From contig JACZRI010000002.1 of assembly GCA_022574775.1 (NCBI GenBank), positions 74,303 to 138,302 on the forward strand: a DNA stretch of 64,000 nt, in the 5' to 3' direction. Within the stretch, counting starts at the first letter, position 1. Each line of letters begins with the position of its first letter. Under the pieces are notes generated by a model. The model saw only the letters and a program-made list of their open reading frames with translations, was not told the origin of the DNA and ran no database searches. Of the stretch, positions 42,195 to 42,506 are shown in pieces. The position numbers were made by a program, and so were the translations under genes. This DNA is from Patescibacteria group bacterium (lineage in GTDB: Bacteria; Patescibacteriota; Minisyncoccia; Minisyncoccales; RBG-13-36-15).

Positions 42195-42506
42195 ATCCCG
42201 TAGAAAACTTAAGTATTTTCCATTTTTATTTTGGATAGACTATTGAAATAGTGTTTCAATCTATATTTGATAAATCTCTTACCAATCCCAATTTTAAAAT
42301 ACTTTTCCTTTTGTTTAGCATCTTCTTTACGTGAACAAATTTCACGGTAAATTAATTTTAAAGGTCTTCTTGATTTAGTAAAAAATACTTTACCTAAATT
42401 ATGTTTTAATATTCTTTTTCGAAAGTTATCAATGAATCCTGTGTATAATTTACCATTTTTAAGACTCTGAACGATATACACGTAAAACATAATATTTCCT
42501 ACAGAA
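42195..42506 (-). mobile_element. compact GIY-YIG gene element filling the pilB-pilC intergenic gap
   Basis: Bounded by TCTGTAGGAAATATT (5') and GGAAAATACTTAAGTTTTCTACGGGAT (3'), directly abutting the pilC ATG. Both end sequences recur at 36581-36691. Confidence 0.6.
42209..42490 (-). CDS. GIY-YIG nuclease-domain protein (UPF0213/YhbQ-like)
   Basis: FYVYIVQSLKNGKLYTGFIDNFRKRILKHN...RRPLKLIYRE...KEKYFK matches the GIY-YIG core pattern. Confidence 0.85.
   Translation of the reverse strand: MFYVYIVQSLKNGKLYTGFIDNFRKRILKHNLGKVFFTKSRRPLKLIYREICSRKEDAKQKEKYFKIGIGKRFIKYRLKHYFNSLSKIKMENT

What the first reader, a model, noticed from the sequence alone, without database searches (positions are those of the whole stretch)
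42195..42506. Compact GIY-YIG gene unit fills the pilB-pilC gap and abuts the pilC start codon
A 93-aa GIY-YIG ORF sits alone between pilB (stop 42514) and pilC (ATG 42194), inside an otherwise tightly packed pilus operon. It is bounded by TCTGTAGGAAATATT directly before its ATG and by GGAAAATACTTAAGTTTTCTACGGGAT directly before the pilC ATG. Both boundary sequences recur about 5.6 kb away at 36581-36691, which argues the unit is or was mobile. This GIY-YIG subfamily (YhbQ/UPF0213-like) is not normally treated as a homing element.
Basis: partly seen in the sequence, partly recalled or inferred. Interest (0 to 1): 0.6.

Follow-up and report, generated by a model that had tools for sequence, protein, structure and literature searches.

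The report
Tiny nuclease-carrying mobile DNA element
The small nuclease gene wedged between two pilus genes is one copy of an apparently undescribed family of about 310-base mobile elements in ultra-small (Patescibacteria) bacteria; each has inverted-repeat ends and lands on the start codon of a host gene, which it duplicates so the gene still has a start.

Summary
A 93-aa GIY-YIG ORF (42490..42209, minus strand) lies between pilB and pilC.

It is a discrete 311-nt insertion (42506..42196). It has imperfect 13-nt inverted ends (family consensus CCCCGTAGGAAAT / ATTTCCTACGGGG) and a duplicated TATG. The downstream TATG copy supplies the pilC start codon. The upstream copy is the orphaned ancestral start.

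- **Other contexts:** Homologues at 54-80% identity sit in unrelated gene contexts in other Patescibacteria with the same ends, and most share the TATG repeat.
- **Empty sites:** None of 17 related pilB-pilC junctions contains the gene.
- **Copy number:** One Nealsonbacteria MAG has two 94%-identical copies with unrelated flanks, plus truncated ones.
- **ORF-less derivatives:** About 125-nt copies with the same ends are more common. The window's second site (36690..36582) is one of them.
- **Selection:** The protein has dN/dS of about 0.1, and the non-coding ends are as conserved as codon positions 1 and 2.
- **Other lineages:** More distant GIY-YIG lineages carry their own matching inverted repeats.

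My best reading is a compact transposon-like element mobilised by its own Slx1/UPF0213-type nuclease, but the chemistry is inferred, not shown. I found no published description.

The parts
42514..44205 (-). pilB (type IV pilus assembly ATPase), the host gene upstream of the insertion. Its stop codon TAA is at 42516..42514.
   Evidence: Pfam T2SSE E 1.4e-120 and MshEN. Orthologues at 61-73% identity in L049-L066.
42507..42510 (-). Upstream copy of the duplicated target TATG. Its ATG (42509..42507) is the orphaned ancestral pilC start, 4 nt after the pilB stop. It now opens a 16-codon out-of-frame ORF (MFCRKYYVLRVYRSES).
   Evidence: Sequence and translation. Relatives have the pilB stop, then 2-13 nt, then the pilC ATG in 9 of 15 junctions.
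42494..42506 (-). 5' terminal inverted repeat TTCTGTAGGAAAT (family consensus CCCCGTAGGAAAT). It contains the AGGA ribosome-binding-like motif 7 nt before the GIY-YIG ATG.
42209..42490 (-). GIY-YIG nuclease ORF of 93 aa, Slx1/UPF0213 type. The catalytic residues Y5, Y16, R26, H30 and E62 are present.
   Evidence: Pfam E 4.3e-13. 33 homologues and alignment A3. PDB 1zg2 E 3e-5. AF2 model and Foldseek. dN/dS 0.05-0.14.
42211..42221 (-). 3' subterminal box GGAAAATACTT. It is conserved at the DNA level whether or not it is translated, and here it encodes the ORF's last residues (M)ENT.
   Evidence: The same box defined the pattern that found 18 element ends in 9 genomes. C-terminal tails in A3 are translations of this box and the repeat.
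42196..42208 (-). 3' terminal inverted repeat GTTTTCTACGGGA (family consensus ATTTCCTACGGGG).
42192..42195 (-). Downstream copy of the duplicated target TATG. Its ATG (42194..42192) is the working pilC start codon.
   Evidence: pilC orthologues start at the same residue (M-x-VSQKEKIFFA). Independent gene calls place the start here.
41133..42194 (-). pilC (type IV pilus platform protein), the host gene whose start codon is the target site.
   Evidence: Pfam T2SSF E 1.7e-57. Related loci.
36582..36690 (-). ORF-less miniature copy of the element, 109 nt. It comprises a 5' repeat CCCTGTAGGAAAC (36690..36678), a vestige of the ORF start (ATGGTATTTTCTACG), an inner 3' end GTTTCCTACAGGG (36619..36607), then a second 3' end AAAATACTTTAT + ATTTCCTACGGGA (36606..36582).
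   Evidence: It folds through the 13-bp repeat stem, z = -3.6.
36691..36694 (-). Upstream TATG copy flanking the miniature element.
36578..36581 (-). Downstream TATG copy flanking the miniature element. Its ATG (36580..36578) starts the 100-aa HTH_17 gene (36580..36278).
   Evidence: Pfam HTH_17. A 100-aa gene is called at this position in L001.

Best explanation
**What it is.** The segment 42506..42196 is one copy of a family of very compact mobile elements of about 310 bp found in Patescibacteria. Each element has these parts:
- a 13-nt terminal inverted repeat (consensus CCCCGTAGGAAAT ... ATTTCCTACGGGG);
- 5-6 nt of spacer;
- an 85-93-aa GIY-YIG nuclease gene of the Slx1/UPF0213 type;
- a conserved 3' subterminal box.

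**What is shown.**
- The element inserts at a 4-nt target that starts with T, most often TATG, and that target is duplicated.
- Here the target was the pilC start codon. The upstream TATG is the orphaned old start, 4 nt after the pilB stop. The downstream TATG is the working pilC start.
- The same element with the same ends occurs in unrelated gene contexts, and in several copies within one genome.
- Related pilB-pilC junctions are empty.
- ORF-less miniature derivatives exist, including one in this window at the start codon of an HTH gene.
- The protein and both non-coding ends are under purifying selection.

**What is inferred.**
- The GIY-YIG protein is the element's own mobilising enzyme. 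It would recognise or synapse the two ends, as duplex sites or as an extruded stem, and make 4-nt staggered cuts at T-NNN beside the repeats and at the target.
- Joining would then need only cohesive-end ligation by a host ligase, or an unknown strand transfer. This gives a piggyBac-like geometry with a fixed duplicated tetranucleotide.
- Miniature copies are moved in trans.
- The element is tolerated inside an operon for three reasons. It has no terminator, it is co-oriented with the operon, and it restores a stop-short-spacer-ATG arrangement (GIY stop, 14 nt, pilC ATG). pilC can then still be translated by coupling.
- The window copy has three mismatches to the consensus in each repeat, and four departures from near-invariant residues. 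It may be an old copy that no longer moves.
For: **Discrete unit with defined ends.**
- Eight full-length elements from unrelated contexts align only between the flanking tetranucleotides. The contexts are pilB|pilC, NTP-transferase|NUDIX, VTT|His_Phos_1, hypothetical|sigma-70, pilin|pilC antisense, two Nealsonbacteria sites and an ABC permease pair.
- L015 and L018 are 100% identical from ATG|CCCC onward and unrelated upstream.

**Target duplication.**
- 18 of 23 independent units have identical 4-nt repeats on both sides: TATG x13, TTAG x2, TGGA, TGAA and TATA.
- T is invariant at the first position, 22 of 22.
- Among non-TATG sites, 5 of 10 repeats match exactly, P about 3e-5.

**Empty sites.**
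- No GIY-YIG in 17 related pilB-pilC junctions, and 9 of the 15 examined in sequence are stop, 2-13 nt, ATG.
- L079 is an empty RecO|X site. There X starts MLDGIFKK, which corresponds to the ATG of the duplicated TATG in L015.

**Start codons.**
- The ATG of the 3' repeat opens an ORF of at least 97 aa in 14 of 16 cases.
- Independent gene calls start at that ATG in L001, L003, L005, L009 and L030.

**Multiple copies and derivatives.**
- Nealsonbacteria RBG_13_36_15 has two copies 94% identical over 327 nt with unrelated flanks, plus truncated copies and a tandem pair.
- A genome scan with the 3' end pattern gave 18 hits in 9 Patescibacteria MAGs. Most are ORF-less units of about 125 nt with the same repeats. 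Every ORF-bearing unit carries GIY-YIG, and none carries another transposase.

**Selection.**
- dN/dS is 0.05-0.14 while dS is about 1-3.
- The non-coding ends are 86% identical, the same as codon positions 1+2 (85%), against 60% for position 3.

**Co-evolution of ends and protein.**
- L030 (54% identity to the window protein in alignment A3) has TCCCGTACGAAAC / GTTTCGTACGGGA, with three positions changed in both arms.
- Lineages at 30-47% identity have their own repeats: CCCC[C/G]CACCACTTT, CCCCGCCCTCTA and CTTTCGCTAAAGCTACA.

**Active-site integrity and fold.**
- Y5, R26, E50 and E62 are invariant. Y16 and H30 are at least 90% conserved.
- The best fold matches are UPF0213, the HIGLE Holliday-junction resolvase and Slx1.

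**Other checks.**
- No terminator is predicted in the element.
- There is no Rfam, PHROG or PADLOC match.
Against: - There is no biochemical or genetic evidence for any activity.
- GIY-YIG enzymes are known as hydrolytic nucleases, and no GIY-YIG transposase is known. Integration chemistry is therefore unexplained unless host ligation of cohesive ends is assumed.
- The protein is only 85-93 aa, with no separate DNA-binding domain to read a 13-bp site.
- I found no same-species genome with an empty site. All three contigs carrying this pilC also carry the element. The empty sites are therefore orthologous at 55-73% protein identity, not nucleotide-exact.
- Five of 23 units lack an exact 4-nt repeat.
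- The genome scan pattern was derived from GIY-YIG elements. An IS with the same repeats but other subterminal sequence would have been missed.
- The predominance of TATG could partly reflect selection for harmless sites rather than enzyme specificity.
- The window copy has degenerate repeats and may be inert.
Confidence: 0.65

Rival explanations
1. The mobile unit is an ordinary MITE or IS family moved in trans by a conventional transposase encoded elsewhere and not yet identified. On this view the GIY-YIG gene is a passenger, or a homing endonuclease that invades copies of the MITE, and plays no part in transposition.
For: - ORF-less copies outnumber ORF-bearing ones.
- Terminal repeats with a 4-nt duplication are the classic signature of DDE elements such as IS5 or piggyBac.
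- GIY-YIG enzymes are not known to perform strand transfer.
- Several MAGs showed only miniature copies in the scan.
Against: - Full-length elements contain nothing but repeat, ORF and repeat. Only 5-6 nt separate the 5' repeat from the ATG, and the 5' hairpin typical of the 125-nt miniatures is absent. They are therefore not a MITE with an insertion.
- At least four diverged GIY-YIG lineages each have their own matched repeats. That would require repeated independent captures.
- Truncated intermediates (L046, window site B) show ORF-bearing units decaying into miniature ones.
- No other ORF was found between any repeat pair in about 445 kb of loci.
- The passenger would have to be kept under dN/dS of about 0.1 across all copies.
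Confidence: 0.2
2. It is a free-standing homing endonuclease gene, like the phage T4 seg genes. It would cut the uninterrupted pilB-pilC junction of naive genomes and be copied in by recombinational repair.
For: - GIY-YIG is a classic homing endonuclease fold.
- The gene sits alone in an intergenic slot of a conserved operon.
- There is a weak TIGR01453 (group I intron endonuclease) similarity in homologues, far below cut-off.
Against: - Near-identical and identical proteins occur at different loci: P0022 in two contexts, and two 94%-identical copies in one genome.
- Homologues are in unrelated contexts.
- Inverted ends and target duplications are not produced by homing.
- There is no DNA-binding domain of the NUMOD type. 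The protein is the bare catalytic domain and belongs to the Slx1/UPF0213 lineage, not the I-TevI/UvrC lineage.
- Miniature ORF-less copies spread too.
Confidence: 0.04
3. It is a resident operon gene. On this view the shared flanking motifs are ordinary regulatory sequence (promoter, RBS or operator) that many genes of this organism use.
For: - The 5' repeat contains an AGGA that can serve as the RBS of the ORF.
- The 15-mer alone recurs no more often than chance.
- The gene is co-oriented with the operon and tightly packed.
Against: - The gene is absent from all 17 related junctions.
- The motif occurs at only two loci in 64 kb, always as an inverted pair.
- The same inverted pair plus a duplicated tetranucleotide accompanies the ORF in other phylum members, in unrelated contexts.
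Confidence: 0.02
4. This adds to the DNA-level model rather than replacing it. The inverted ends would also act in RNA. The 13-bp stem would be cut, for example by RNase III, removing the element from the transcript and leaving pilC on an almost leaderless mRNA. That would explain why insertions at start codons, and the ones reported in rRNA genes, are tolerated.
For: - In the window copy every mismatch between the two arms is a G-U wobble on the sense strand, so all 13 positions can pair as RNA (sequence).
- Elements always have the same orientation relative to the downstream ATG.
- GIY-YIG insertions in CPR rRNA genes are not introns (PMC11270868).
Against: - In other copies the arm mismatches are A-C on the sense strand (L003, L005, L048), so there is no consistent RNA-strand signature.
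- There is no Rfam match.
- In-frame read-through insertions in pilin leaders show that at least some elements are translated through rather than removed.
- Nothing here measures RNA.
Confidence: 0.1

Closest known systems
Bacterial insertion sequences and their MITEs (for example IS630/Tc1 with a TA duplication, IS5 with a 4-bp duplication, and IS200/IS605 as the smallest known IS at about 700 bp)
   Same: Terminal inverted repeats, a short target duplication, multiple copies per genome, unrelated insertion contexts, empty orthologous sites, and ORF-less miniature derivatives that outnumber the coding copies.
   Different: The only encoded protein is an 85-93-aa GIY-YIG nuclease, not a DDE, HUH, serine or tyrosine enzyme. 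The whole element is about 310 bp, less than half the size of the smallest known autonomous IS. The orientation is fixed and the target (T-NNN, mostly TATG) usually lies at a gene start.
Free-standing and intron-encoded GIY-YIG homing endonucleases (T4 SegA-G, I-TevI)
   Same: A GIY-YIG catalytic domain encoded by a small selfish gene placed between host genes.
   Different: Homing enzymes have long C-terminal DNA-binding modules, target one cognate allele, and leave no inverted repeats or target duplications. This protein is the bare domain from the Slx1/UPF0213 branch, and its element moves to many different sites.
UPF0213/YhbQ proteins and eukaryotic Slx1 / plant HIGLE structure-selective nucleases
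   Same: These are the closest in sequence and fold (1zg2 E 3e-5; Foldseek 1zg2, 7wme, 7cq2). They share the minimal domain and lack the C-terminal Asn typical of the UvrC and homing-endonuclease lineage.
   Different: Those proteins are treated as vertically inherited housekeeping or repair nucleases acting on branched DNA (PMC1564403). Here the gene is bounded by repeats, varies in position and is multi-copy.
piggyBac transposons (recalled from memory plus PMC7351741; a lead, not a test)
   Same: 13-bp terminal repeats beginning CCC...GGG, a fixed duplicated tetranucleotide starting with T (TTAA there), and a geometry compatible with seamless excision through 4-nt cohesive ends.
   Different: piggyBac is eukaryotic and encodes a DDD transposase of about 600 aa. 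Its target is TTAA, not TATG, TTAG or TTTA. There is no homology.
REP/RAYT and REPIN systems, and Rickettsia palindromic elements
   Same: A small nuclease-type gene flanked by the same repeats that are scattered through the genome as short palindromic units. Some copies are inserted in frame within coding sequence (the family-2 elements in pilin leaders).
   Different: RAYTs are HUH Y1 enzymes, single-copy and syntenic, and REPs have no target duplication. No enzyme is known for the Rickettsia elements.
GIY-YIG-encoding insertions in CPR rRNA genes (PMC11270868)
   Same: The same phylum-level host range and the same kind of small GIY-YIG ORF. The authors report that the insertions are not introns and do not look like homing.
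   Different: That work did not describe inverted ends, target duplications, miniature copies or insertion at protein-gene start codons. Whether those rRNA insertions belong to this family was not tested here.

Membership tests
GIY-YIG nuclease superfamily (Pfam PF01541) | Significant profile match over the catalytic domain | tested here: met
   E 4.3e-13, 49.8 bits against a cut-off of 22.6, residues 1-66.
GIY-YIG nuclease superfamily (Pfam PF01541) | Catalytic residues: Tyr of GIY, Tyr of YIG, Arg, and a metal-binding Glu | tested here: met
   Y5, R26, E50 and E62 are invariant; Y16 and H30 are at least 90% conserved in 33 sequences. The predicted fold is beta-beta-alpha-beta-alpha, pLDDT 78.
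Slx1 / UPF0213 (YhbQ) lineage | Closest to UPF0213 and Slx1 in sequence and structure, a minimal stand-alone domain, and no conserved C-terminal Asn of the UvrC and homing-endonuclease lineage (criterion from PMC1564403) | tested here: met
   PDB 1zg2 E 3e-5 and 1ywl E 4e-3. Foldseek top hits are 1zg2, 7wme (HIGLE) and Slx1, with I-TevI lower. There is no conserved Asn after E62.
Slx1 / UPF0213 (YhbQ) lineage | Vertically inherited single-copy housekeeping gene (as described in PMC1564403) | tested here: not met
   Contexts vary, there are two or more copies in one genome, and relatives have empty sites.
Homing endonuclease gene (free-standing or intron-borne) | Occupies one cognate site across genomes | tested here: not met
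   At least 8 unrelated contexts for proteins at 54-80% identity. The identical protein P0022 has two different upstream flanks.
Homing endonuclease gene (free-standing or intron-borne) | Sequence-specific DNA-binding module attached to the nuclease domain | tested here: not met
   The protein is 85-93 aa and only PF01541 is detected. The NCBIfam group I intron endonuclease model scores far below cut-off.
Homing endonuclease gene (free-standing or intron-borne) | Resides in a self-splicing intron or intein | tested here: not met
   No Rfam intron or other family match at E <= 1 apart from a chance snoRNA hit.
Insertion sequence / DNA transposon | Terminal inverted repeats at the limits of the conserved segment | tested here: met
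   13-nt repeats at the exact limits of cross-context homology. The two arms co-vary in diverged lineages.
Insertion sequence / DNA transposon | Target-site duplication | tested here: met
   18 of 23 units have exact 4-nt repeats, five of them not TATG. Family 2 has TTTA in three loci.
Insertion sequence / DNA transposon | Multiple copies per genome, and empty sites in relatives | tested here: met
   Nealsonbacteria MAG: two full copies at 94% identity plus truncated copies. There are 1-4 ends per genome in 9 MAGs. Empty pilB-pilC and RecO|X sites. No same-species empty site was found.
Insertion sequence / DNA transposon | Encodes a recognised transposase class (DDE, HUH, serine or tyrosine recombinase, Cas1, DEDD) | tested here: not met
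   The only ORF is GIY-YIG.
Insertion sequence / DNA transposon | Demonstrated excision or integration activity | not testable with these tools
   This needs biochemistry, genetics or read-level population data.
MITE (for the window site 36690..36582) | Short, no ORF, the same terminal repeats as a coding partner, flanked by a target duplication, and recurring | tested here: met
   109 nt with TATG on both sides, and repeats matching the pilB-pilC element. Twelve or more comparable units in other genomes.
piggyBac superfamily | TTAA target and a DDD transposase | tested here: not met
   The targets are TATG, TTAG, TGGA and similar, and there is no such ORF.

The most novel reading that the evidence does not exclude
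A minimal Slx1/UPF0213-type GIY-YIG nuclease is itself a transposase. These elements of about 310 bp would then be the smallest autonomous transposable elements known, and a new mechanistic class. They would move by 4-nt staggered cutting next to CCCC...GGGG repeats and cohesive-end rejoining. They would have evolved to land where they do no harm: on start codons that they regenerate (family 1), or in frame inside cleavable prepilin leader peptides whose Gly-Phe cleavage site they rebuild (family 2). A sizeable part of the thousands of 'GIY-YIG nuclease family protein' clusters in Patescibacteria, including the non-intron GIY-YIG insertions in their rRNA genes, would then be mobile DNA rather than repair genes.
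Probability: 0.4. Interest if true: 0.9.

Novelty: new variant of a known kind. Interest (0 to 1): 0.8.

Why it matters
- **A new enzyme class for DNA transposition.** If the nuclease drives movement, it adds a class to the short list that carries out transposition, and it lowers the minimum size of an autonomous element to about 310 bp.
- **Protein annotation.** It would change how a very large group of proteins is read. The profile matches 4,924 clusters at E<=1e-10. These proteins are currently treated as housekeeping UPF0213/Slx1-like nucleases.
- **rRNA insertions.** It offers an explanation for the GIY-YIG insertions in CPR rRNA genes that are neither introns nor homing elements.
- **Persistence in dense genomes.** It shows how selfish DNA can survive in extremely gene-dense genomes of about 1 Mb: by duplicating the start codon, or rebuilding the leader-peptide cleavage site, of the gene it interrupts.
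- **Genome annotation practice.** These units create orphan ATGs, false N-terminal extensions and fused ORFs in gene calls.
- **A possible tool.** An 85-aa nuclease with a defined 13-bp end sequence and a fixed tetranucleotide target would be an attractive tool if it proves active.

Tried and rejected
**Database checks with no result.**
- Rfam search of 35.5-43.5 kb at E<=1 gave only a sub-threshold snoRNA hit, which I take as chance.
- PHROGs and PADLOC gave no match, so this is not a known phage or defence family.
- NCBIfam gave only a far sub-threshold group I intron endonuclease hit in homologues.
- The promoter/terminator scan found no terminator, and promoter-like hits were no more frequent than in shuffles.

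**Searches for an empty site or other carriers.**
- Looking up the exact pilC protein to find a same-species empty site returned only the same three contigs, all carrying the element.
- Viral contigs had no hit to the 24-nt 3' end pattern.
- Five hits to a 17-nt pattern had no partner repeat and no GIY-YIG, so they are chance or solo ends.
- GIY-YIG relatives found in viral contigs are partly next to tRNA genes and show no convincing inverted repeats (L072, L074, L075). They look like ordinary phage homing-type genes.

**Leads that did not hold.**
- A lone repeat-like match at window 3432 lies inside a 258-aa ORF with no partner, so it is chance.
- I looked for N-terminal 'MPRRK' (translated repeat) signatures among the 150 best 50%-cluster representatives. 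My motif matched only 45 of them and none showed the signature, so this was uninformative.
- A strand-specific G-U pattern in the repeats, which would be an RNA signature, holds for the window copy but not for others.

**Literature.** Ten full-text searches found no description of a bacterial GIY-YIG element with inverted repeats and a target duplication. The library covers open-access papers only, so a description elsewhere is not excluded.
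Full report
**1. What is at the coordinates**

All genes of interest lie on the minus strand.
- The ORF 42490..42209 encodes 93 aa and matches Pfam GIY-YIG at E 4.3e-13.
- Upstream is pilB (44205..42514; T2SSE E 1e-120, plus MshEN). Downstream is pilC (42194..41133; T2SSF).
- These are followed by minor pilins, a PilX-like gene and pilM.
- tblastn finds no second GIY-YIG in the 64 kb.
- The exact protein is carried by three public contigs, all with the same neighbours. NCBI names it 'GIY-YIG nuclease family protein [Patescibacteria group bacterium]'. 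The window GC content is 37%.

Their recurrence near 36.6 kb is weak when they are treated as whole strings: the 15-mer gives 8 matches at up to 3 mismatches against 4.8 expected, and the 27-mer does not recur. The shared core is significant. TTYCTACRGG occurs 4 times against 0.38 expected. Five of the seven matches to TTTCCTACRGG at up to 1 mismatch lie in these two loci.

**2. The unit travels with its ends**

I looked up homologues at 54-80% identity on their contigs. They sit in unrelated contexts:
- NTP-transferase|NUDIX (L003)
- VTT|His_Phos_1 (L005)
- hypothetical|sigma-70 (L009)
- RecO|membrane protein (L015)
- antisense between a pilin and pilC of another pilus operon (L025)
- between two ABC permease genes (L030)

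In every case the ORF is preceded by (T)ATG-CCCCGTAGGAAAT-N5-6-ATG. It is followed by GGAAAATACTTTATTTCCTACGGGG-TATG or a close variant.

An alignment of eight elements with 35-nt flanks is conserved only between the two tetranucleotides (A1). L015 and L018 are identical from ATG|CCCC onward and unrelated upstream. The unit is therefore a 13-nt inverted repeat, the ORF, a 3' box and the second repeat.

**3. Target duplication at start codons**

I catalogued 24 repeat-bounded units, 23 of them independent.
- 18 have identical 4-nt repeats on both sides: TATG x13, TTAG x2, TGGA, TGAA and TATA. Three more share 3 nt.
- The first base is T in 22 of 22.
- Five of the ten non-TATG sites have exactly matching repeats, P about 3e-5 under a generous chance model. 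The repeats are therefore target duplications and not part of the element.
- The ATG in the 3' copy opens an ORF of at least 97 aa in 14 of 16 cases.
- Independent gene calls use that ATG as the start in five loci.
- Where the repeat ends in A and the duplication is TGNN (L030, L031, L032), the A of the repeat plus TG rebuilds an ATG.

In the window the sequence reads cgaaTAA-aca-TATG|TTCTGTAGGAAAT ... GTTTTCTACGGGA|TATG-tcagtttca. The upstream ATG lies 4 nt after the pilB stop and opens only a 16-codon out-of-frame ORF.

**4. Empty sites**

A metagenome scan with pilC returned 17 loci that contain both pilB (55-73% identity) and pilC. None has a GIY-YIG between them.

In 9 of the 15 junctions examined, the pilB stop is followed by 2-13 nt and then the pilC ATG. 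Examples are gaaTAAATacgATGgtttct and TAACC-ATGtctgtttca. The window's TAAacatATG upstream of the element matches this architecture.

For the L015 insertion, a relative (L079) has RecO followed by 55 nt and then a gene starting MLDGIFKK. That start corresponds to the ATG of the 3' TATG in L015 (MFDGIFKK). L080 keeps only a remnant resembling the 3' repeat.

I found no same-species empty allele.

**5. Copy number and miniature derivatives**

I scanned one genome per species with the 24-nt 3' end pattern. It gave 18 hits in 9 Patescibacteria MAGs, 1-4 per genome.
- Three hits are full GIY-YIG elements.
- One or two have truncated ORFs.
- One is a solo end and one is cut off by the contig end.
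- The rest are ORF-less units of 120-134 nt with the same repeats and the same duplications.

Nealsonbacteria RBG_13_36_15 has two full copies 94% identical over 327 nt with unrelated flanks. It also has an internally deleted copy, and a tandem pair sharing one TATG.

The miniature units share about 45 nt at the 5' end (the repeat plus a small hairpin) and about 30 nt at the 3' end, with a variable middle (A2). They fold through the repeat stem, z between -3 and -5.4.

The window site 36690..36582 is such a unit. It is 109 nt long, has TATG on both sides, and keeps a vestige of the ORF start and a duplicated 3' end. It abuts the ATG of a 100-aa HTH_17 gene.

No other ORF lies between any repeat pair in about 445 kb of fetched loci.

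**6. Selection and co-evolution**

- Pairwise dN/dS of the ORF is 0.05-0.14, with synonymous sites near saturation.
- The 13+24 non-coding end nucleotides are 86% identical. Codon positions 1+2 are 85% identical and position 3 is 60%.
- The active-site residues are conserved.
- The window copy departs from near-invariant residues at four positions (L7V, D12N, S37F, R61K). It also has three mismatches to the consensus in each repeat, so it may be old.

Diverged lineages carry their own matched ends:

| Locus | Identity | Ends |
|---|---|---|
| L030 | 54% (alignment A3) | TCCCGTACGAAAC / GTTTCGTACGGGA (three positions changed in both arms) |
| L073 | 43% | CCCCGTAGGATTT / AAATCCAACGGGG |
| L060, L057, L082 | 47% (L060/L057; not computed for L082) | CCCC[C/G]CACCACTTT / AAAGTGGTG[G/C]GGGG (compensatory change) |
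| L070 | 30% | CCCCGCCCTCTA / TAGAGGGCGGGG |
| L077 | 35% | CTTTCGCTAAAGCTACA / TGTAGCTTTAGGGAAAG |

The nuclease gene and its inverted ends have therefore been associated for a long time, which argues against the gene being an occasional passenger.

**7. What the protein is**

- The best solved-structure relatives by sequence are the UPF0213 proteins BH0048 (1zg2, E 3e-5) and EF2693 (1ywl).
- The AlphaFold model (pLDDT 78) is closest to 1zg2, then to the plant Holliday-junction resolvase HIGLE (7wme) and Slx1. I-TevI ranks lower.
- There is no conserved C-terminal Asn. The 2006 phylogenomic study uses that absence to separate Slx1-like proteins from the UvrC and homing-endonuclease lineage. 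The same study regards stand-alone prokaryotic members as vertically inherited (PMC1564403).
- A profile of the 33 homologues matches 19,811 50%-identity clusters at E<=1e-3 and 4,924 at E<=1e-10. What fraction of these is repeat-bounded is unknown.

**8. How it most likely works**

Shown:
- a discrete insertion with inverted ends and a 4-nt duplication;
- a fixed orientation, with the 3' end always next to the gene start and never a CATA duplication;
- multiple contexts and copies;
- miniature derivatives;
- purifying selection on the protein and on the ends.

Inferred:
- The GIY-YIG protein is the mobilising enzyme.
- Its nearest characterised relatives cut branched or stem-loop DNA, so it may act on the paired ends.
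- One tetranucleotide dominates in each family: TATG in family 1 and TTTA in family 2. This fits a cut-and-rejoin scheme with 4-nt cohesive ends, geometrically like piggyBac at TTAA (PMC7351741, listed, abstract only; the comparison is from my own knowledge).
- Tolerance in the operon is explained by the absence of a terminator, by co-orientation, and by a restored stop-14 nt-ATG spacing for translational coupling.

None of the chemistry has been demonstrated. A conventional transposase acting in trans is the main rival, at about 0.2.

**9. Comparison with what is known**

The element works like an IS with its MITEs, but it fails the membership test for every recognised transposase class. It carries a homing-endonuclease-type fold, but it fails the tests for a homing element: it has no single cognate site, no DNA-binding module and no intron.

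The nearest published observation concerns GIY-YIG ORFs in CPR rRNA-gene insertions. [quoted passage not shown]

Ten full-text searches found no description of a bacterial GIY-YIG element with inverted repeats and a target duplication. This covers open-access literature only.

**10. Verdict**

I rate it a new variant of a known kind: a transposon-like element with an unprecedented sole gene. I give about a 0.4 chance that it represents a new transposase class. Interest is 0.8.

Noticed in passing
L060:3543-4250, L061, L082:560-1276, L057:4150-4460, L083:1501-1590: A second GIY-YIG element family (ends CCCC[C/G]CACCACTTT, duplication TTTA) sits inside the prepilin leader-coding region, at the Phe-Thr codons of GFTLIE.
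- In L060/L061 (P0189, 236 aa, 19 contigs) and L082 (P0195, 238 aa) the whole element is in frame: M..TPHHF-GIY domain-..KSG[G/A]G|FTLIE-pilin. The 3' repeat therefore rebuilds the Gly-Phe prepilin peptidase site. In L082 the nuclease has no start codon of its own.
- In L057/58 an alternative-frame ATG inside the element gives a 20-aa leader ending GGG|FTLIE.
- L083 keeps a 35-nt in-frame remnant between TTTA repeats.

   Followed up: partly
window 38303-38359, 40132-40188, 40631-40687 (minus-strand ORFs 38305..38871, 40134..40604, 40633..41130): Three minor-pilin genes of the operon end in a shared 57-nt block (82-91% identical) encoding QLHYRWRNDDGxE followed by a stop. This is a conserved C-terminal tag or a recombination cassette of unknown meaning.
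   Followed up: no
L049:2020-2164, L052:2384-2497 (same as L083:348-449), L053:1731-1887, L059/L063/L065 pilB-pilC gaps: In relatives the pilB-pilC junction is a hot spot for other small inserts:
- 145 nt with a GC-rich hairpin;
- a block of about 102-114 nt;
- 157 nt containing CCCCGTGTAGGAAAATATTA, which resembles the 5' end of the element;
- arrays of CTTTAAA/CTTTAGA repeats.

   Followed up: partly
L048:3482-3986: In the Nealsonbacteria MAG, a full GIY-YIG element and a 191-nt ORF-less element lie in tandem and share a single TATG between them. This suggests an occupied site can be hit again.
   Followed up: partly
L038:1189-1310: This is a miniature element inserted at TTAG, 6 nt before an ATGA stop/start overlap. 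The TAG inside the 5' repeat (CCCCGTAGG) now terminates the upstream gene and changes only its last two codons. The repeat can thus supply a stop codon as well as regenerate a start.
   Followed up: partly
L070:5569-5790: The GIY-YIG ORF of this diverged element has an in-frame TGA (KR*IKEH). It is either a pseudogene or the host uses TGA as a sense codon, as some CPR lineages do.
   Followed up: no
L075:480-900 and L072, L077 (viral contigs): GIY-YIG relatives in viral contigs lie next to or between partial duplicates of tRNA genes. These look like ordinary phage homing-type insertions and differ from the repeat-bounded elements, except for L077, which has 17-nt inverted repeats.
   Followed up: no
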